DNA from: a virus
Lineage: Duplodnaviria; Heunggongvirae; Uroviricota; Caudoviricetes
DNA: 23,513 nt
IMG/VR virus record: IMGVR_UViG_2737471866_000003
Direction: 5' to 3' (one strand)
Within the stretch, counting starts at the first letter, position 1; every line of letters begins with the position of its first letter. Below the pieces are notes generated by a model that had not been told where the DNA came from, did no database searches, and saw only the letters and a program-made list of their open reading frames with translations. A program made the translations under genes and the position numbers. Positions 9,457-17,687 of this stretch are shown one piece after another.

Positions 9457-12400
9457 CGTCCACCTCCGGAGAACAGACCACCATCACGGGACTGCTGTTG
9501 CATAAAGTCCGCTGCTGCTTTTTTCCCGAGGTCATAAACCACCTTCAGGGCAGCCGGACCTATCTGCCCGTTCGTGCCATCGTTATTGATCTCGATGTTG
9601 TACTGCGGGGCAAACATCGCCATACCTGAACCACCAATATCCGCCACAACCCCCAGCTTACCGTCAGCACCACGACGCAGAGGCAGAATGGCTTCAGGCC
9701 CAGCTTCCCCCATCACACCTGCACCTTTTGCAAAAGCAAAAAACGTCGGACGGTTAACCACCGTGCCACTGTAGCGACTCAAATCAGCAGACTGATAAAC
9801 ACCACCATCAGCATTGGGCGTCACACTGGCAGTTGCTGCACTCCCCCAGCCAAACGCCGAACCAATCCCCTTAACTGCCTGCATCATGGACATCTGGGCC
9901 ATGATTTTTGCCAGATCAGAAAGGAGCGAGGCGGTAAAAGATTTGAAGTTCAGTTTTCCGGTAGTACAGAACGTTGCCAGTGCATTACCTGCACTGTTAA
10001 ATGCCGCTGTAAGCATCTGCTCAGCAGTGCCTGCCGCATTATCCGCATCTGCCGTGAAATTCTGAAACGCCCGCATAGCACCGTTTTTCCAGTTACCCTG
10101 AGCAATTTCAAGCTGTTGCCAGTAACGGCGATTCTCATTCAGTTGTCGGTTCAGGCTCTCCGTCAGCGCCTGCTCGGCCTTTCTGTAGTCATCCGTGTTA
10201 TATGTCCCTTTCTGCTCACTATCCCGCCTCAACTGCTCCAGCTGTTGCTGGTATTTCTGGCGAAGACTCAGTTGTACCTGATATCGCTGCCGCTGCTGAT
10301 CACCCATACCCACCGTGGCGATATCCAGGTCATGTTGCTGACGCTGAGCGCGCTCTTCTTCAGCCAGTTGACTGGTCAGCTGAATTGTTTTTTTCTTCAG
10401 ATCGTTGAGTGCCGTCTGTTTCTGAAGCTCCTGCTGTTTTACATCCAGCAGCGTCAGTGCCTGAATCAGTTCATCTTTACGGGCCAGCACACTCTTTTCA
10501 TCTGCCGTCAGTTTTTTCCCGTCCAGATCGCTGATGCGCTGCTGCAGAGCCAGAAGCTGTTTATGCGCTTCTGTCATCCTGTCAGTGGCAATGCCTGCTG
10601 ACTGTCTTGCAGCAGCAATCTGTCCTTCCACCTGTGCCTGTTGCTGGCTGTACTGCAGCAATAACCGGGTGGCCTCATCATTACGGGTTTCACGTGTTTT
10701 TTTCTTACCGGATGCCAGGGCTTTCTCGTAACGTTCATTTTCACGTTGTATCGCCGCATCCCTGACAGCCTGATCGGCGTACTGCATGGCATTAATACGC
10801 GCAATTTCACGCTGATGTCGTGCAGCTTCCGTTTCATTCATCCGGTTCAGTGCAGCATTTTCAGCATTACGGCGTTTCTGTTGCTCCTGATAATTCCGCT
10901 CTGCCTGCTCTTTTGCATCCTGCAAATCCTTCTGGCGTTTTTTCTCCTGAAGATCGTTAAGACGCTGCTGATCGTATTCAACCTGAGAAGATGATGCCGT
11001 CCAGGGGAGTCTTTTCGCCCGCGACACTTTCTCCTGCAAAGTGGCAATCTGCGCATCCAGCGAATCTTCACGACCAATATTCATGGCCGCATCCCAGAAC
11101 TGCTTCCACCAGTCAGACAAGGTTTGCAGCGTACTACCCAGCGCATTGAGGTTATTATCAATATCCGCAGTACGCCGACCGGTTTCCTCTGCCAGTGCAG
11201 ACATGGCTATCCGTGCCGCATCACTGGACCGCCCCTGCTCTCCAAGGACGCGTATCTGCTCAAGCTGAGTGGCAGTAAGAAAATGCAGCTCATTGTCCAG
11301 AGACTTCGCGGCATTTACAGGATCATCCTTCAGCCGCTTAAACTGATTTATGGTATCGCTGACCGACTGGCCAACCGATCGCTCCATCTGTGCGGCAGCT
11401 CTCGCCACCATACCGATATCGTTTCCACGAAATGCACCACTCCCCACCACCTGAGCCAGCGCACCGGCTGCAGCATGTTGCGTGATACCATTCCCGGAAA
11501 TAGCACGACTGAGCGTCCACAGCTGCCCGGCAGTGACTCCGGCATAATGCCCCGTCAGCGACAGCTGGCGGTTAAATTCTTCCCCCTCCTTCTGACCGTC
11601 ATACCAGGCTTTACCCAGACCATAGACAGCCGCGGCAATACCACCAATAACCCCGCCCAGCATCATGCCTTTCGGTGACATCAATGTGTCTATCCACCCG
11701 GCACGGTTAGCCAGCGTTATTCCGGATCCCCTCAGCGCACCTAAATTTCCGCGGGCCAGTTCACCTATCAGAACGCCTATCTCCTGACGGGCCGCTGCAC
11801 TTTTCAGACCCAGCGAATGCGTGGCTTTTCCTGCCTGCTCCATTTTGCGGATATACACTTCTGCAGCACTGCTTACCCCCAGCTGGGCAGCCTTAGCACG
11901 AAGCAACTCAGAAGAAGAAAGATTCTGGCGGGTTGCCTGCTCTTTAAGCTGACGGATAAACGCCACTTTCTGTCGGGTAGCCTCTTCCTCAGCCTGTGTA
12001 AGAACACGGGTTTTCGCCGTAACCTCAGAAATCAGCGCCAGATAATCCTGCTGACCAATCCCGCCACTGTTTCTGGCCTGTCGGATCTGCTGCTGAATAC
12101 GCTGTAATTCCTGCAGCCCCGCACTGGCCTGTTTCACACTGTCAATCTGACGATAAAACGCAGCAGCCGCTTTATCCTGAGCCTCCGCCAGAGCCATGGC
12201 CTGCGCCTGTTCCTCGCGCATTTTCTGGCTCAGCGCCTCCATGCGCTGGCGGGTTTTCTCCACCTCGCGGGCCATGCGTTCATGAGCCTGTGCGTTCTTC
12301 TCCACCGTCTGCGCATGGACGGATGCGGCTGTTGCAGCCGAAGACGCCGCCTGCGTTGTCTGCCGGGCGGCCTGAGTCTGACGCTCCATAAAACGCTGCA

Positions 12401-12527
12401 TACGGGCAGAAGACCGTTCTGCATCGCTGGCTGCACCATTCAGAAGGTTTTTGATACGGGGGATTTCATTTTTAAACTCTGCCGCATCAATCCCCAAATC
12501 AATGACCAGGTTGGCTATCTGGTCCAT
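9453..12527 (-). CDS. H: Tail tape measure protein H (about 1024 aa from the RBS-supported ATG)
   Basis: Track ORF 9453..12557 (-). The internal ATG at 12527 (MDQIANLVIDLGIDAAEF...) has a GGAGG RBS 8-12 nt upstream and aligns with the lambda H N-terminus. The C-terminal end (...INNDGTNGQIGPAALKVVYDLGKKAAADFMQQQSRDGGLFSGGGR) matches the lambda H C-terminus. The N-terminal half has long Q/E/R/A-rich coiled-coil-like sequence. Confidence 0.85.
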   Translation of the reverse strand: MDQIANLVIDLGIDAAEFKNEIPRIKNLLNGAASDAERSSARMQRFMERQTQAARQTTQAASSAATAASVHAQTVEKNAQAHERMAREVEKTRQRMEALSQKMREEQAQAMALAEAQDKAAAAFYRQIDSVKQASAGLQELQRIQQQIRQARNSGGIGQQDYLALISEVTAKTRVLTQAEEEATRQKVAFIRQLKEQATRQNLSSSELLRAKAAQLGVSSAAEVYIRKMEQAGKATHSLGLKSAAARQEIGVLIGELARGNLGALRGSGITLANRAGWIDTLMSPKGMMLGGVIGGIAAAVYGLGKAWYDGQKEGEEFNRQLSLTGHYAGVTAGQLWTLSRAISGNGITQHAAAGALAQVVGSGAFRGNDIGMVARAAAQMERSVGQSVSDTINQFKRLKDDPVNAAKSLDNELHFLTATQLEQIRVLGEQGRSSDAARIAMSALAEETGRRTADIDNNLNALGSTLQTLSDWWKQFWDAAMNIGREDSLDAQIATLQEKVSRAKRLPWTASSSQVEYDQQRLNDLQEKKRQKDLQDAKEQAERNYQEQQKRRNAENAALNRMNETEAARHQREIARINAMQYADQAVRDAAIQRENERYEKALASGKKKTRETRNDEATRLLLQYSQQQAQVEGQIAAARQSAGIATDRMTEAHKQLLALQQRISDLDGKKLTADEKSVLARKDELIQALTLLDVKQQELQKQTALNDLKKKTIQLTSQLAEEERAQRQQHDLDIATVGMGDQQRQRYQVQLSLRQKYQQQLEQLRRDSEQKGTYNTDDYRKAEQALTESLNRQLNENRRYWQQLEIAQGNWKNGAMRAFQNFTADADNAAGTAEQMLTAAFNSAGNALATFCTTGKLNFKSFTASLLSDLAKIMAQMSMMQAVKGIGSAFGWGSAATASVTPNADGGVYQSADLSRYSGTVVNRPTFFAFAKGAGVMGEAGPEAILPLRRGADGKLGVVADIGGSGMAMFAPQYNIEINNDGTNGQIGPAALKVVYDLGKKAAADFMQQQSRDGGLFSGGGR

Positions 12528-12828
12528 AACGCACACCTCCGGAAATACCTTCCCCAAGATGCATCAGTTCTTCGTCCGTTCGCTCCGGTATCCCGTTCTC
12601 TTCCGGTAAAAGGCTGAAATCAGCCACCGCAGCATCACTGCTGCCGGACACCATTCTCACGATCAATGCCTTCAGCGAGGCAAACTGCGCATCCATCCAC
12701 ACATCACTGAAGCTCTGCATCCGGAAATAATCGCCCCACTCACCAAGCTCAGTGGCCGACATTTCCGACAGCATCCGCCGCCAGTCTGCCCGCCGGAACT
12801 CCCGGGCAAGCCGCATGACAAACTGCAT
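12499..12828 (-). CDS. T: Tail assembly protein T reading frame, expected to be expressed only as a G-T fusion by -1 ribosomal frameshift
   Basis: Track ORF 12499..12828 (-) lies in the -1 frame relative to G, whose stop is at 12837-12839. The T frame stays open upstream into the last codons of G, the arrangement known for lambda G/G-T. Confidence 0.75.
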   Translation of the reverse strand: MQFVMRLAREFRRADWRRMLSEMSATELGEWGDYFRMQSFSDVWMDAQFASLKALIVRMVSGSSDAAVADFSLLPEENGIPERTDEELMHLGEGISGGVRYGPDSQPGH

Positions 12829-12836
12829 TTCCCGCG

Positions 12837-13226
12837 TCAGGACTTTTCCGGCGTCAGCACCTCATGCTCCAAATCCCCGGCATTCTCAATGGCTCCCATA
12901 CCGCTCAGCGACAGAACCATCTCCGCCCCCGCACCCAGGGCATCATACGACCATGTTGTAATTACGGATGCGCAAAGCGTCTCAACATCCTGAGACTGTT
13001 CCGCATTCCACAGTGAGCGGGAAACCAGCCAGGCATTGATATCCATCCCCATCCGCAGAAAAGCAATCTGTCGTTCAGCCTCCGGCAGTTCTCCCTCTTC
13101 GGCATCAAACTTTGCCGTTCGCTGCTGAACAAACGCCAGATATTCAATTCTCTGCAGCCCGGACAGCTCACTGAGCACCACGGACTGCTTTTCATAATTA
13201 AACGTGCCCTGTTTCAGAAACATCAT
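12837..13226 (-). CDS. G: Tail assembly chaperone G
   Basis: Track ORF 12837..13265 (-). Start placed at the ATG at 13226 (MMFLKQGTF...), which has a GGTGGAG RBS upstream and lies downstream of the V terminator hairpin; the lambda G N-terminus MFLK... aligns here. Acidic C-terminus typical of G. Confidence 0.8.
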   Translation of the reverse strand: MMFLKQGTFNYEKQSVVLSELSGLQRIEYLAFVQQRTAKFDAEEGELPEAERQIAFLRMGMDINAWLVSRSLWNAEQSQDVETLCASVITTWSYDALGAGAEMVLSLSGMGAIENAGDLEHEVLTPEKS

Positions 13227-13239
13227 GTTCTCCACCTGC

Positions 13240-13263
13240 AAAAAAGCCCCGGATAACCGGGGC
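13240..13263 (-). terminator. Candidate intrinsic terminator / attenuator after major tail gene V
   Basis: Minus strand reads GCCCCGG-TTAT-CCGGGGC followed by TTTTTT: a perfect 7 bp GC stem, 4 nt loop and T-run, sitting between the V stop (13284) and the G start. Confidence 0.55.
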
Positions 13264-13283: not shown

Positions 13284-14027
13284 TTAACCTGCGGCGCTGA
13301 CAGTCACCGTAGCCACTGCCACAAAATCGCCGTCAGAAGTCATGCCCACAATGCTGACACTGCCCTGCTTCACGCCTTTCACCGTGGCCACAAGCCCGTT
13401 CAGGGTCACCGTGGCAGTCTGTGGATCTGTCGAATGCACACTGATCGCTTTGTCACTGGCTCCGTCAGGTTTTACTGTAAAGGTCAGCGTGGTGGTTGCT
13501 CCCACTTTTACACTGGCAGATGCCGGTGCCACCGTCAGCCCGGTAACGCTCACTGTTTCAGTGCCTTCCTCTGCCAGATACGGACGCCCCACACCGCTGA
13601 TTTTCACAGTGCGGGTCATCACGTCTTTTGAGGCAATGGTTTTACCCAGTGAACTCAGCCAGCCACGGAAAACATCAACAGTACCGTTGGGATATTTGAT
13701 ACGAAACGCGCAGACTTCACCGGAGTCGAACAACTGAACCAGTTTTTTCTGCCCGCTGTCACCCGGACGCCAGGCCAGCGTCGCCGAAGTATCACCGACT
13801 GATTTCTGCCCCTGGGTTGTCGTTTTCCAGTCTGCATCTTCATCATCGAGATAAGTGTCATCTTCTGCATCAGCGGTCATTTCGCCAGGTTGCAGATCCT
13901 TCACCATCGCAAGACGCAGCCAGTCAGTGTCCGACAAAGGATTCGCAAACGCATCGCCGTTGCCGGTATACATCCAGAACGTCGTCCCCGCACCTTTCGT
14001 CTTTGCCAGTGGATTTGGTGTGGTCAT
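13284..14027 (-). CDS. V: Major tail tube protein V with C-terminal Ig-like (Big_2-type) domain
   Basis: Track ORF 13284..14102 (-). The in-frame Met at track coordinate 14027 (MTTPNPLAKTKGAGTTFW...) aligns with the lambda V N-terminus and lies downstream of the U stop. The C-terminal about 90 aa is Thr/Val/Ser-rich and Ig-like, as in lambda V. Confidence 0.85.
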   Translation of the reverse strand: MTTPNPLAKTKGAGTTFWMYTGNGDAFANPLSDTDWLRLAMVKDLQPGEMTADAEDDTYLDDEDADWKTTTQGQKSVGDTSATLAWRPGDSGQKKLVQLFDSGEVCAFRIKYPNGTVDVFRGWLSSLGKTIASKDVMTRTVKISGVGRPYLAEEGTETVSVTGLTVAPASASVKVGATTTLTFTVKPDGASDKAISVHSTDPQTATVTLNGLVATVKGVKQGSVSIVGMTSDGDFVAVATVTVSAAG

Positions 14028-15715: not shown

Positions 15716-17674
15716 TTACGCCGTACATTTCACCAGACCGCGGTGATCAACTGGCGCGACACCGGCGTCAATACGCACTTTCGTTGTCACGCCATCCACA
15801 CTGAAGCCCTCCATCTGATCAATATATGGCGTATCCACACCGTTGAGATAAGCCACTTCAATCGTATCGGAGCCTTTTGACGCAGCCAGGTAGAAGGTGG
15901 TCTGGCTGTTATCATCAAGACGAGGCTCTGCAATAACGGTCGCAAAATCTTTCACCGGGTTAATAATACCGGCGTTAATGTCAGCCCCCTTGACACTTGA
16001 GGAGCGAATGACCTGGTTAGCAACAGACTCCATCGCCGTCGGTACCAGTACGAACGCAGGACGAATATTCAGATGACGCTCCCCCTCTTTCTGAACGCGC
16101 ATCAACTGGCGGGCTTTATCCAGCGATGCCACGTCCATTGCAGCGCTCTCCAGTACGTTTGCATGTTTCGCTTTATCGAACAGACTTACATTATCTGTGG
16201 AGATTTTCGGGTTAGACGTCAGAATGGCATAAACCAGATCGGCAATAGTGGATTTCGCCGCACGGCCCAGCTTCATCGGGACATCGGTCAGCATATTCAG
16301 ATCATCATTGATAATGGCCTGACGGGTGATACTGAACAGCTCGCCATAGGTCGCCAGTGCAATAGTGGCCTGTTTATCTCCGGTGGTGACGTATTTATAT
16401 TCCGCCCCTTCACGCACCTGACGCAGAGCACTGAAGCCCCCCATACCCACACGATGGGCAATTTTAAAATCAGACAACTGACCTTTCCGCGTCCACTGTT
16501 CATAGGTTTCAGGGGCATCTTCCCAGCCCTGCAGAATGGCTTTGTTCGCAACATCCAGCAGAATATTACCGAAGTCAGACGTACTGTGTGTGAACGCCGC
16601 ACCGACCATCTGCATCGGGTTATAACTGGAAACCCCAATACCCCGTTCAGTCAGTGACATACGGGCATATTCACGCAGGGTCATCCCGTTGTAGACATTA
16701 TCACGTTCGGTTTTTTCAAATCCGGCACGCGCCATCAGCGCCTGGCGAATCCCGTCCCCCACAAAATTACCGTTACCGGCATAAATATGAGCCGGAGTAT
16801 TTTTATTGGATGGCGTGGACTCGCGCCCCATCTCGTTCAACAGCTTTTCGCGGGCCTGCTCCAGCGAACATTCAGGATCGGCAAGACACTGAGCCTGCAG
16901 CGTCTGATAACGCCCGCCAAACATGGCAAACAGATCATTAATACCGTTTACACGCGCTTTTTGCTCTGCCAGTACCTGCGCACGGATGCTGTTTTCATCC
17001 ACCACGGGTGCTGCTGCCTGCACTGGCGTCCGGGAGGCTGCAGGTTCATCATCCTGTACGCGTGGAGCACTGTTGCGTGGCGGAGTAATCATGTTTCGAA
17101 TGGATTCCGGCATCTTTTTAAATTCCTCTGTACGTTTTGACTGAATACATGCCATTGCCTTAACGGCTGGCGTCACCTGATCAGCAAATCCATGTGCCAG
17201 ACATTCGGCACCGGACATCCAGGTCTCATCCGCCAGCATGGCAGCAATTTCATCGGTGGTTTTCCCGGTTTTCTGTGCATAAGCGGGTAACAGAACCGCC
17301 TCAACCTTATCGAGCAGGTCGGCATAGGTGCGCATGTCCTCCGCATCACCGCCCGTAAAGCCAAATGGTTTATGAATCATCATGAAGGTGTTTTCCGGCA
17401 TAATGACCGGGTTTCCCACCATCGCAATGACCGACGCCATTGACGCCGCCACACCGTCGACATAAACGGTAATGGACGCACCATGTGTTTTCAGTGCATT
17501 AAAAATGGCGATGCCTTCAAAGACATCGCCACCCGGTGAATTGATATGGAGATTAATGTGGGTGATATCGCCCAGTGCATTCAGATCACTGATAAACTGC
17601 TTCGCCGTAACACCCCAGAAACCAATCTCGTCATAAATATAAATATCCGCGTCACTCTGGTGACCAGCCTGCAT
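15716..17674 (-). CDS. Fused prohead protease (ClpP-like serine protease) - scaffold-like linker - major capsid protein (HK97 fold), about 652 aa
   Basis: Track ORF 15716..17935 (-) overlaps the portal gene by about 250 nt; the first ATG after the portal stop is at 17674 (MQAGHQSDADIYIYDEIGFWG...). The N-terminal about 200 aa has ClpP-like motifs (GVAASMASVIAMVG Ser context, MIHKP His context). The middle is coiled-coil-like (AQVLAEQKARVNG...) and the C-terminal about 350 aa is capsid-like. Confidence 0.8.
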   Translation of the reverse strand: MQAGHQSDADIYIYDEIGFWGVTAKQFISDLNALGDITHINLHINSPGGDVFEGIAIFNALKTHGASITVYVDGVAASMASVIAMVGNPVIMPENTFMMIHKPFGFTGGDAEDMRTYADLLDKVEAVLLPAYAQKTGKTTDEIAAMLADETWMSGAECLAHGFADQVTPAVKAMACIQSKRTEEFKKMPESIRNMITPPRNSAPRVQDDEPAASRTPVQAAAPVVDENSIRAQVLAEQKARVNGINDLFAMFGGRYQTLQAQCLADPECSLEQAREKLLNEMGRESTPSNKNTPAHIYAGNGNFVGDGIRQALMARAGFEKTERDNVYNGMTLREYARMSLTERGIGVSSYNPMQMVGAAFTHSTSDFGNILLDVANKAILQGWEDAPETYEQWTRKGQLSDFKIAHRVGMGGFSALRQVREGAEYKYVTTGDKQATIALATYGELFSITRQAIINDDLNMLTDVPMKLGRAAKSTIADLVYAILTSNPKISTDNVSLFDKAKHANVLESAAMDVASLDKARQLMRVQKEGERHLNIRPAFVLVPTAMESVANQVIRSSSVKGADINAGIINPVKDFATVIAEPRLDDNSQTTFYLAASKGSDTIEVAYLNGVDTPYIDQMEGFSVDGVTTKVRIDAGVAPVDHRGLVKCTA

Positions 17675-17687
17675 CCTGAACCAGGAA

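What the first reader, a model, noticed from the sequence alone, without database searches (positions are those of the whole stretch)
12837..12852. G-T programmed -1 frameshift site appears to use a non-canonical heptamer
T is in the -1 frame relative to G and is open only across the last about 7 codons of G, so the shift must occur there. In my reading the only slippery-like sequence in that interval is G-GAA-AAG (0-frame ...CCG GAA AAG TCC TGA), not the canonical lambda G-GGA-AAG. Re-pairing would need a G:U pair in the P site. This may reduce or tune the G to G-T ratio, or my reading is off by one base.
Basis: partly seen in the sequence, partly recalled or inferred. Interest (0 to 1): 0.4.

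Follow-up and report, generated by a model that had tools for sequence, protein, structure and literature searches.

The report
Tail-chaperone frameshift site with N15-type heptamer
This is the ordinary ribosomal frameshift site that lambda-like phages use to make a second tail-assembly chaperone, and its one-base-different slippery sequence (GGAAAAG rather than lambda's GGGAAAG) is the commonest version among the related prophages sampled here and was already marked as the slip site in the phage N15 record.

Summary
On the minus strand, gene G ends ...ACG CCG GAA AAG TCC TGA. The T frame is -1 and is open for only 22 nt before the G stop. G GAA AAG (window 12849-12843) is the only place in that overlap where both tRNAs could re-pair.

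It is not an oddity:
- The same heptamer sits at the homologous position in 23 of 30 sequence clusters (85% nt identity) of lambda-type G/T modules from many enterobacterial genera.
- Lambda's GGGAAAG is the minority (3 of 30) and appears at least twice on a tree.
- The N15 GenBank record already marks GGAAAAG as its slippery sequence.

All seven bases are invariant while synonymous sites elsewhere vary. The first G stays fixed although its codon changes among Pro, Ala, Leu, Val and Thr. This favours a two-tRNA slip: tRNA-Glu from GAA to GGA (one G:U pair) and tRNA-Lys from AAG to AAA.

No downstream structure or upstream SD-like element is conserved. This window does have GAGGUG 8 nt upstream. 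T has no conserved start codon, so public records that call it a separate ORF are probably wrong.

Verdict: real, functional and ordinary. It is a new member of a known kind. Efficiency was not measured.

The parts
13284..14027 (-). Major tail tube gene (lambda V homologue), immediately upstream of G
   Evidence: Pfam Phage_TTP_12 at 1.2e-66 plus Big_2. Annotated as major tail protein in Ayreon, mEp460 and RefSeq.
13240..13263 (-). Terminator-like hairpin GCCCCGG-TTAT-CCGGGGC followed by a T run, between V and G
   Evidence: Found by the terminator scan. The centroid fold shows the 7-bp GC stem. The equivalent element is annotated as a terminator in mEp460, Ayreon and N15.
12837..13226 (-). 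Gene G, the tail assembly chaperone (129 aa from ATG 13226; RefSeq starts at the second ATG, 13223)
   Evidence: Pfam Phage_TAC_2 (lambda gpG family) at 1.8e-39. ORF and translation.
12858..12863 (-). SD-like GAGGUG 8 nt upstream of the heptamer; a possible local stimulator that is not conserved across the family
   Evidence: Duplex with the anti-SD is -9.2 kcal/mol, about the 6th percentile of windows in its own gene. The family median percentile is 0.30 and N15-type loci have none. Close relatives are polymorphic, GAGGTG versus GAGGCG.
12840..12861 (-). The 22-nt G/T overlap: the only stretch where a shift from the G frame into the T frame can occur
   Evidence: -1-frame stop at 12864-12862 and 0-frame stop at 12839-12837.
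12843..12849 (-). Slippery heptamer G GAA AAG (P-site codon GAA, A-site codon AAG; the -1 frame reads GGA AAA)
   Evidence: Invariant in 23 of 30 clusters and at 2.0 bits per position. All three codon third positions are invariant, unlike almost all other columns. The identical heptamer is annotated as the slippery sequence in N15.
12499..12843 (-). T segment, read in the -1 frame starting from the re-read G at 12843. Together with G codons 1-128 it gives a 242-aa G-T fusion (...LTPEK|VLTREMQF...)
   Evidence: Pfam Phage_tail_T at 5.1e-15. Fusion built. K128 and E133 are invariant in the alignment that includes lambda.
12826..12828 (-). Non-conserved ATG that public annotations use as the start of a stand-alone T ORF (109 aa)
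   Evidence: ORF list. Used by mEp460 and RefSeq. Weak SD of -4.0 kcal/mol. An ATG at this offset is present in only 2 of 30 clusters.
9453..12527 (-). Tape measure gene (lambda H homologue); its ATG at 12527 overlaps the end of T
   Evidence: Pfam TMP_2 at 3.2e-49 and Tape_meas_lam_C at 9.8e-24. Strong SD of -13.3 kcal/mol.

Best explanation
This is the programmed -1 ribosomal frameshift site of a lambda-type tail assembly chaperone gene pair (G and G-T) in an E. coli lambdoid prophage of the cdtI/mEp460/Ayreon group. Most ribosomes read G to its stop at 12839-12837 and make the 129-aa chaperone. A minority, with tRNA-Glu on GAA in the P site and tRNA-Lys on AAG in the A site, slip back one base on G GAA AAG (12849-12843). 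tRNA-Lys re-pairs perfectly with AAA. tRNA-Glu re-pairs with GGA through two Watson-Crick pairs and one middle-position G:U pair. Translation then continues in the T frame and gives a 242-aa G-T fusion (...T-P-E-K-V-L-T-R-E...). By analogy with lambda, this fusion links the tape measure protein to the tail tube protein. Shown here: gene order and homology, the frame relation, the 22-nt overlap, the exact heptamer, its nucleotide-level conservation, the lack of a conserved start for T, and the lack of a conserved stimulatory RNA structure. Inferred: that slippage takes place, that both tRNAs slip together, and that the efficiency is low (probably at or below lambda's few percent). The GAGGUG 8 nt upstream may help in this particular strain.
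For: (1) Identity: G matches Pfam Phage_TAC_2 at 1.8e-39 and T matches Phage_tail_T at 5e-15, and they lie between the tube and tape measure genes. (2) Frame and overlap. (3) Homologous position: in the alignment of G-T fusions with lambda, the slip-site Lys (K128) and Glu133 just after it are invariant. Lambda has GCG GGA AAG where this window has CCG GAA AAG. (4) Conservation: Gifsy-1, Gifsy-2 and Fels-1 (67-71% nt identity) keep CCG GAA AAG while the upstream sequence has diverged. 23 of 30 clusters from about 20 genera have GGAAAAG. It is the only invariant 7-mer around the junction. (5) Nucleotide-level selection: of 214 codon columns only 9 have an invariant third base, and 3 of these are the consecutive heptamer codons. 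Among 159 columns with three or more amino acids, only the codon before GAA (CCG/GCG/CTG/TTG/GTG) has a fixed third base. The other invariant Glu columns mix GAA and GAG. (6) In all 30 clusters, heptamer base 1 equals the first base of the P-site codon (G GAA, G GGA, G GCA, A AAA), as expected if the P-site tRNA must re-pair. (7) Stops in relatives confine the shift to the heptamer plus at most 6 nt upstream and 0 nt downstream (L061, L028). (8) T has no conserved start. (9) N15's depositors annotated the same GGAAAAG as the 'slippery sequence for -1 translational frameshift'. (10) A_AAG is the most shift-prone tetramer in E. coli (PMC4066793).
Against: There is no direct measurement for this or any GGAAAAG-type phage in the material I could reach. 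[quoted passage not shown] The A_AAG tetramer alone gave only about 0.15% in vivo without a stimulator. No conserved stimulator was found here. The expected efficiency is therefore uncertain and may be well below lambda's. The 30 clusters are related to each other, not independent. The loci were also retrieved with patterns built from an alignment in which 4 of 5 sequences were of the GGAAAAG type, which may inflate its share.
Confidence: 0.8

Rival explanations
1. Only tRNA-Lys slips, on the A AAG tetramer. This could happen in the A site, or in the P site after translocation while the next codon waits. tRNA-Glu plays no pairing role and the upstream G is irrelevant. The protein product would be the same (...E-K-V...).
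For: A_AA.G is by far the most shift-prone tetramer in E. coli, reaching 5.6% with a pseudoknot (PMC4066793). Peng et al. treat G GAA AAG as a one-tRNA site. Some relatives have a stop codon directly after the Lys codon (CTG GAA AAG TAG; CTG GCA AAA TAG; ATG GGA AAA TAG), which suits P-site slippage at a slowly decoded stop. In the GGCAAAA type the P-site tRNA-Ala could keep only one of three pairs.
Against: Heptamer base 1 is invariant G although its codon changes among five amino acids. It is the only one of 159 variable columns with a fixed third base. Base 1 equals the first base of the P-site codon in all 30 clusters, including A AAA AAG. A tetramer-only mechanism would not need either property. 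In this window the codon after AAG is an ordinary TCC, not a stop.
Confidence: 0.13
2. T is an independent gene translated from its own ATG at 12828, as GenBank and RefSeq records annotate it, and there is no frameshift.
For: An ATG exists 14 nt after the heptamer, and ORF callers annotate a 109-aa 'tail assembly protein T' from it.
Against: The SD is weak (-4.0 kcal/mol, against -13.3 for H and -14.5 for V). An ATG at that offset is present in only 2 of 30 clusters, and in 15 clusters the first ATG is 68 nt downstream, inside the conserved domain. Conserved T-frame residues (K-V/A-L-x-x-E) begin right at the heptamer, upstream of the ATG and in a stretch that is non-coding in the G frame. The heptamer's nucleotide-level conservation would be unexplained.
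Confidence: 0.03
3. The shift happens just upstream of the heptamer, so that GGA AAA is itself translated in the -1 frame as Gly-Lys. This would explain why GGN-AAA (Gly-Lys) is kept in the T frame in almost all heptamer classes.
For: The -1 frame reads Gly-Lys in the GGAAAAG, GGGAAAG, GGCAAAA and GGGAAAA types. In lambda the two models give the same peptide, so the lambda result (recalled from memory, Levin et al. 1993) does not separate them.
Against: -1-frame stops lie only 3 nt (L044) and 6 nt (L061) upstream of the heptamer in relatives, leaving no slippery sequence there. In this window none of the upstream codon pairs allows re-pairing. The Stx-phage type reads Lys-Lys, not Gly-Lys.
Confidence: 0.03

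Closest known systems
Phage lambda G / G-T programmed -1 frameshift (Levin, Hendrix & Casjens 1993; Xu, Hendrix & Duda 2004, 2013, 2014; as summarised in PMC5009743)
   Same: The proteins are homologous (Pfam gpG and gpT families). The gene order V-G-T-H is the same. T is in the -1 frame with a short overlap. The slip site is at the homologous codon, with an invariant Lys. No obvious RNA structure follows.
   Different: The heptamer is G GAA AAG rather than G GGA AAG, a one-base difference at position 3. The P-site tRNA is therefore tRNA-Glu with a middle-position G:U pair after the shift, rather than tRNA-Gly with cognate or wobble pairing. G stops 3 nt after the heptamer here, against 15 nt in lambda. 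The T part is shorter (114 aa after the slip-site Lys, against 144 in lambda).
Phage N15 genes 14/15 (GenBank AF064539.1)
   Same: The heptamer GGAAAAG is identical, lies at the homologous position, and was explicitly annotated by the depositors as the 'slippery sequence for -1 translational frameshift'. There is also a terminator-like hairpin between the tube gene and the chaperone gene.
   Different: The fusion protein is only about 36% identical. The preceding codon is GCG (Ala) rather than CCG (Pro). The G stop is 15 nt downstream rather than 3. There is no SD-like sequence upstream.
Salmonella prophages Gifsy-1, Gifsy-2 and Fels-1 G/T
   Same: These are the closest diverged relatives (54-60% aa, 67-71% nt). 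They share the identical ACN CCG GAA AAG YCC TGA junction. The Gifsy records describe T as made by translational frameshifting.
   Different: The acidic linker upstream of the junction has diverged. None has an ATG near the junction.
E. coli dnaX and IS911/IS3 -1 frameshift signals (A AAA AAG with an SD-like element and a hairpin or pseudoknot)
   Same: They use the same A-site event, tRNA-Lys slipping from AAG to AAA. This window has an SD-like GAGGUG 8 nt upstream, within the 6-17 nt range searched for stimulatory SD-like sequences in PMC4066793.
   Different: There is no conserved downstream stem-loop or pseudoknot. The SD-like element is not conserved in the family. The P-site re-pairing is near-cognate rather than cognate.
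'twofour' (XX-YYYY) alternative slippery motif proposed by PRFect from annotated actinophage chaperone frameshifts (PMC10885494)
   Same: By the paper's naming rule, GGAAAAG fits the XX-YYYY pattern. The paper also invokes G:U pairing to explain some non-XXXYYYZ motifs.
   Different: That motif class was derived from unverified annotations in unrelated phages. The figure that defines the motifs was not readable here, so the match rests on the naming rule alone.

Membership tests
Lambda-type G/G-T tail assembly chaperone with programmed -1 frameshift | Two ORFs located between the major tail tube gene and the tape measure gene | tested here: met
   V 13284-14027, G 12837-13226, T 12499-12843, H 9453-12527, all on the minus strand.
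Lambda-type G/G-T tail assembly chaperone with programmed -1 frameshift | Sequence homology of the two parts to lambda gpG and gpT | tested here: met
   PF06894 at 1.8e-39 and PF06223 at 5.1e-15, both above the curated cut-offs. The fusion is 35% identical to lambda G-T.
Lambda-type G/G-T tail assembly chaperone with programmed -1 frameshift | The second ORF is in the -1 frame, overlaps the 3' end of the first, and has no start of its own | tested here: met
   22-nt overlap. The ATG at 12828 is not conserved and has a weak SD.
Lambda-type G/G-T tail assembly chaperone with programmed -1 frameshift | Canonical X XXY YYZ slippery heptamer in the overlap | tested here: not met
   The heptamer is G GAA AAG, and its positions 1-3 are not identical. 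It differs from lambda's by one base and re-pairs with one G:U pair. This is a variant of the signal, not an absence of one.
Lambda-type G/G-T tail assembly chaperone with programmed -1 frameshift | A G-T fusion protein is made at a few percent of G and is needed for tail assembly | not testable with these tools
   Needs a reporter assay, western blot or mass spectrometry.
N15-type GGAAAAG slip site | GGAAAAG in the phase G GAA AAG at the codon homologous to the N15 gene 14/15 annotated slippery sequence | tested here: met
   The N15 misc_feature at 10027-10033 is GGAAAAG. It has the same phase and sits in the same alignment column.
dnaX/IS-type stimulated -1 frameshift signal | SD-like sequence about 6-17 nt upstream of the heptamer | tested here: inconclusive
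   GAGGUG lies 8 nt upstream in this window (-9.2 kcal/mol, 6th percentile). It is absent from most of the family and polymorphic among close relatives.
dnaX/IS-type stimulated -1 frameshift signal | Stable downstream hairpin or pseudoknot 5-9 nt after the heptamer | tested here: not met
   The single-sequence fold has z = -1.24. The RNAalifold consensus over 23 sequences is -1.57 kcal/mol, with 4 invariant pairs about 60 nt downstream and no covariation.
Single-tRNA A_AAG tetramer slippage | Only the tetramer is required, and the upstream bases are free to vary | tested here: not met
   The base at heptamer position 1 is invariant G across five different preceding amino acids. It is the only fixed third position among 159 variable columns.

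The most novel reading that the evidence does not exclude
G GAA AAG has been used in ribosome biochemistry as the poorly slippery control in which only one tRNA can slip. Here it appears to be the predominant, and possibly ancestral, natural shift site of enterobacterial lambda-type G-T genes, and it is selected at all seven bases. If so, middle-position G:U re-pairing of tRNA-Glu(mnm5s2UUC) in the P site is functionally sufficient in vivo. The textbook lambda heptamer GGGAAAG would then be a derived state reached by a single A-to-G change at least twice. The two heptamers might set different G:G-T ratios matched to different tape measure or tube proteins.
Probability: 0.3. Interest if true: 0.45.

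Novelty: new member of a known kind. Interest (0 to 1): 0.3.

Why it matters
The practical consequence concerns annotation. This tail module occurs in 1,848 of 5,426 complete E. coli genomes. RefSeq and most phage records call T as a stand-alone ORF from a non-conserved ATG, or truncate it, rather than as a G-T frameshift product. Searches that allow only canonical X XXY YYZ patterns, such as the pattern set used in PMC4066793, would miss it.

There is also a modest mechanistic point. A heptamer treated in vitro as nearly non-slippery is conserved base for base as a natural shift site, including the base that matters only if the P-site tRNA re-pairs through a G:U pair. This gives a natural one-base series at a single homologous site (G GAA AAG, G GGA AAG, A AAA AAG, G GGA AAA) for asking how P-site pairing sets frameshift efficiency and the chaperone ratio. 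None of this changes the known biology of G-T frameshifting.

Tried and rejected
- **Conserved downstream stimulatory structure.** None was found, either in the single-sequence fold (z = -1.24) or in the 23-sequence consensus fold (-1.57 kcal/mol, no covariation).
- **Conserved upstream SD-like stimulator.** It is present in this window but not across the family, so it is not part of the conserved signal.
- **Independent initiation of T.** Rejected.
- **Other slip positions in the overlap.** None allows re-pairing.
- **Transcriptional slippage.** The A run is only four bases. From general knowledge, RNA polymerase slippage needs runs of about seven or more. This was not tested further.
- **The 7-mer being rare by itself.** It is not: 7 copies against 3.4 expected.
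- **Literature searches** for GGAAAAG, 'G GAA AAG' and other spellings and the PRFect supplements. The only relevant hit was the in vitro control in PMC6924986.
- **Papers not held.** Xu et al. 2004, which tabulates chaperone slippery sequences, is not in the library. The title search for Sharma et al. 2014 failed, but the paper was reached by DOI.
- **A naive independence test of the first G** from codon usage. I replaced it with an empirical column-wise null, because the observed codons are single-base neighbours and could share the G by descent.

Full report
**1. What is in the sequence**

The genes lie on the minus strand. Listing and translating the ORFs gives this order:
- a tail tube gene at 13284-14027;
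- a 129-aa ORF at 12837-13226;
- a -1-frame ORF running down to 12499;
- a 1,024-aa ORF starting at ATG 12527.

Pfam identifies them as the lambda V-type tube protein (1.2e-66), lambda gpG chaperone (PF06894, 1.8e-39), minor tail protein T (PF06223, 5.1e-15) and tape measure protein.

The G frame ends GAG GTG CTG ACG CCG GAA AAG TCC TGA. The -1 frame reads TGA GGT GCT GAC GCC GGA AAA GTC CTG ACG CGG GAA ATG. The T frame is therefore open for only 22 nt before the G stop, and the heptamer G GAA AAG lies at 12849-12843.

Scoring every P/A codon pair in the overlap shows this is the only position where both tRNAs could re-pair. tRNA-Lys goes from AAG to AAA. tRNA-Glu goes from GAA to GGA, with a purine-for-purine change at the middle position. 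For anticodon 3'-CUU-5' that is a G:U pair (standard pairing rules).

**2. Where it comes from**

The region is 98-99% identical to the E. coli lambdoid phages phi458, Ayreon, cdtI and mEp460. It occurs in 1,848 of 5,426 complete E. coli genomes.

None of these records annotates a frameshift. T is called from the ATG at 12828 (mEp460, RefSeq) or from a later start (Ayreon).

**3. Comparison with relatives**

- The Salmonella prophages Gifsy-1, Gifsy-2 and Fels-1 are only 67-71% identical in DNA. They still keep ACN CCG GAA AAG YCC TGA, while the acidic linker just upstream has diverged freely.
- Lambda has GCG GGA AAG at the position that aligns with it. In an alignment of the predicted fusion proteins, the slip-site Lys (K128) and Glu133 are invariant.
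- A scan of one genome per species returned 69 loci at 33-99% identity. A scan of viral contigs returned 80 close relatives.

I extracted the junction from each locus:

| Level | GGAAAAG | GGGAAAG | GGCAAAA + TAG | GGGAAAA + TAG | AAAAAAG |
|---|---|---|---|---|---|
| 107 distinct G-T sequences | 96 | 6 | 2 | 1 | 2 |
| 30 clusters at 85% nt identity | 23 | 3 | 2 | 1 | 1 |

The GGGAAAG clusters are lambda, E. albertii/Stx2a and Edwardsiella. The AAAAAAG cluster is Stx phages. The GGAAAAG clusters come from Escherichia, Salmonella, Citrobacter, Kosakonia, Kluyvera, Leclercia, Atlantibacter, Enterobacter, Trabulsiella, Phytobacter, Pluralibacter, Superficieibacter, Sodalis, Symbiopectobacterium, Providencia and others.

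On a neighbour-joining tree of the fusion proteins, GGAAAAG is spread throughout. GGGAAAG appears in two separate places. That tree has no support values. The loci were also found with patterns built from an alignment dominated by GGAAAAG-type sequences. The proportions are therefore indicative only.

**4. It was already recognised**

The N15 GenBank record (AF064539.1) carries a misc_feature labelled 'slippery sequence for -1 translational frameshift' at 10027-10033. Its sequence is GGAAAAG, in the same phase and at the homologous codon. The Gifsy-1 and Gifsy-2 records also describe T as a frameshift product.

PRFect (PMC10885494) lists a 'twofour' motif among the alternative backward motifs seen in annotated chaperone frameshifts, and it mentions G:U pairing as one rationale. 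By the paper's naming rule GGAAAAG fits that motif. I could not read the figure that defines it.

Xu et al. 2004, which tabulates such sites, is not held in the library.

**5. Is the heptamer under selection as nucleotides?**

Anchoring the 23 GGAAAAG clusters on the site, the heptamer is the only run of seven fully invariant positions from 45 nt upstream to about 30 nt downstream.

In a codon alignment of the 23 fusion genes:
- Only 9 of 214 ungapped columns have an invariant third base.
- Three of the nine are Trp or Met, which have no synonymous choice. Three are near-invariant residues. Three are the consecutive codons NNG, GAA and AAG.
- The other two invariant Glu columns mix GAA and GAG (5:18 and 13:10).
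- None of 15 control four-fold-degenerate columns is invariant (mean major-allele frequency 0.52).
- The codon before GAA is CCG, GCG, CTG, TTG or GTG among the cluster representatives, and ACG in one further sequence (L063). It is the only one of 159 columns with three or more amino acids whose third base never changes.

That base is heptamer position 1. It matters only if the P-site tRNA re-pairs in the -1 frame. In all 30 clusters, whatever the heptamer type, position 1 equals the first base of the P-site codon. This favours simultaneous two-tRNA slippage over slippage of tRNA-Lys alone.

**6. Where the shift must occur, and whether T can start by itself**

Stops in relatives narrow the permitted window. 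In L061 a -1-frame stop lies 6 nt before the heptamer and a 0-frame TAG follows it directly. In L044 (a GGGAAAG type) the upstream stop is 3 nt away.

In 15 of 30 clusters the first ATG in the T frame lies 68 nt downstream, past the conserved LAREF(R/G)RPDW motif. The ATG at 12828 in this window has an equivalent at that offset in only 2 of 30 clusters. Its SD is weak (-4.0 kcal/mol, against -7.0 for G, -13.3 for H and -14.5 for V).

**7. Stimulators**

The 113 nt starting 3 nt before the heptamer (12852-12740) fold no better than shuffles (z = -1.24). A consensus fold of 23 diverged sequences finds only four invariant pairs about 60 nt downstream, with no covariation (-1.57 kcal/mol).

An SD-like GAGGUG lies 8 nt upstream in this window (-9.2 kcal/mol, about the 6th percentile in its own gene). 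The family median percentile is 0.30 and N15-type loci have nothing. Close relatives alternate between GAGGTG and GAGGCG. The conserved signal is therefore the heptamer alone. The SD-like element is at most a strain-level modifier.

**8. Expected efficiency**

This was not measured. In E. coli in vivo, the A_AA.G tetramer alone is barely above background (about 0.15%) but is the best tetramer when stimulated (5.6%). G_GG.A_AA.G is among the three most efficient heptamers (PMC4066793). In a purified system, AUG GAA AAG gave mainly 0-frame product and was described as unfavourable because of the second-position mismatch (PMC6924986).

Lambda needs only about one G-T per 30 G (PMC5009743), so a weak site may be enough. 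Whether GGAAAAG gives a lower ratio than GGGAAAG is the obvious open question.

**9. Verdict**

The site is a typical member of a widespread heptamer class that was already annotated in N15. It is not an exception, so it is a new member of a known kind and of modest interest.

The points of value are:
- the likely mis-annotation of T in a very common E. coli prophage module;
- comparative evidence that all seven bases are selected, including the one needed only for P-site re-pairing;
- the contrast with the use of this heptamer as a non-slippery control in vitro.

Noticed in passing
window 13240-13263 (minus strand), between V and G: There is a strong terminator-like hairpin (7 GC pairs, GCCCCGG-TTAT-CCGGGGC) followed by TTTTTT, between the tube gene and the chaperone genes. 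The equivalent element is annotated as a terminator in mEp460, Ayreon and N15. It could lower expression of G, G-T and H relative to the tube protein.
   Followed up: partly
window 12499-12828; L162 12413-12742; L001 2039-2302: Public records annotate T inconsistently and never as a frameshift product. RefSeq and mEp460 start it at a non-conserved ATG, and Ayreon starts it 66 nt further downstream. The module is present in 1,848 of 5,426 complete E. coli genomes.
   Followed up: partly
L015, L017, L028, L045, L061 (junctions listed): Some relatives place a stop codon directly after the slip codon: CTG GAA AAG TAG, CTG GCA AAA TAG and ATG GGA AAA TAG. In the GGCAAAA type the P-site tRNA-Ala could keep only one pair. 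These may work by P-site slippage of tRNA-Lys at a slowly decoded stop, which would be a different mode at the same homologous site.
   Followed up: partly
L159, L161 (Stx2 and Stx1 converting phages): At the homologous position these phages carry TCA AAA AAG, the dnaX-type A AAA AAG heptamer. The family therefore holds at least five heptamer types at one site.
   Followed up: partly
L047-L052, L055-L058, L067-L069 (genome-contig hits): Across the stretch compared (the last 16 codons of G), these loci read exactly as lambda does, and the complete ones collapse into the same distinct G-T sequence as lambda. They sit on short contigs, most with coverage of about 1x to 10x in the contig name, in assemblies labelled Kitasatospora, Neobacillus, Oceanobacillus, Pseudomonas, Shewanella, Leeuwenhoekiella, Chromatium, Paenibacillus, Pseudoxanthomonas and Psychrobacter. 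This looks like laboratory lambda DNA contaminating the assemblies.
   Followed up: no
window 12858-12863 and close relatives L008-L013, L117-L151: The SD-like hexamer upstream of the heptamer is polymorphic among near-identical prophages: GAGGTG, GAGGCG, and the preceding codons TTG GAG, GAT GAG or GAT GAT. If it stimulates slippage, frameshift efficiency could differ between strains.
   Followed up: partly
window 15716-17935 (minus strand): This long ORF corresponds to a RefSeq 'ClpP-like prohead protease/major capsid protein fusion protein', so the head protease and capsid protein are encoded as one polypeptide.
   Followed up: no
window 12499-12527 (minus strand): The tape measure ATG at 12527 lies 29 nt inside the end of T and is preceded by a strong SD, GGAGGTG (-13.3 kcal/mol). 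That SD is itself encoded within the conserved G-G-V-R-Y-G C-terminal motif of T.
   Followed up: no
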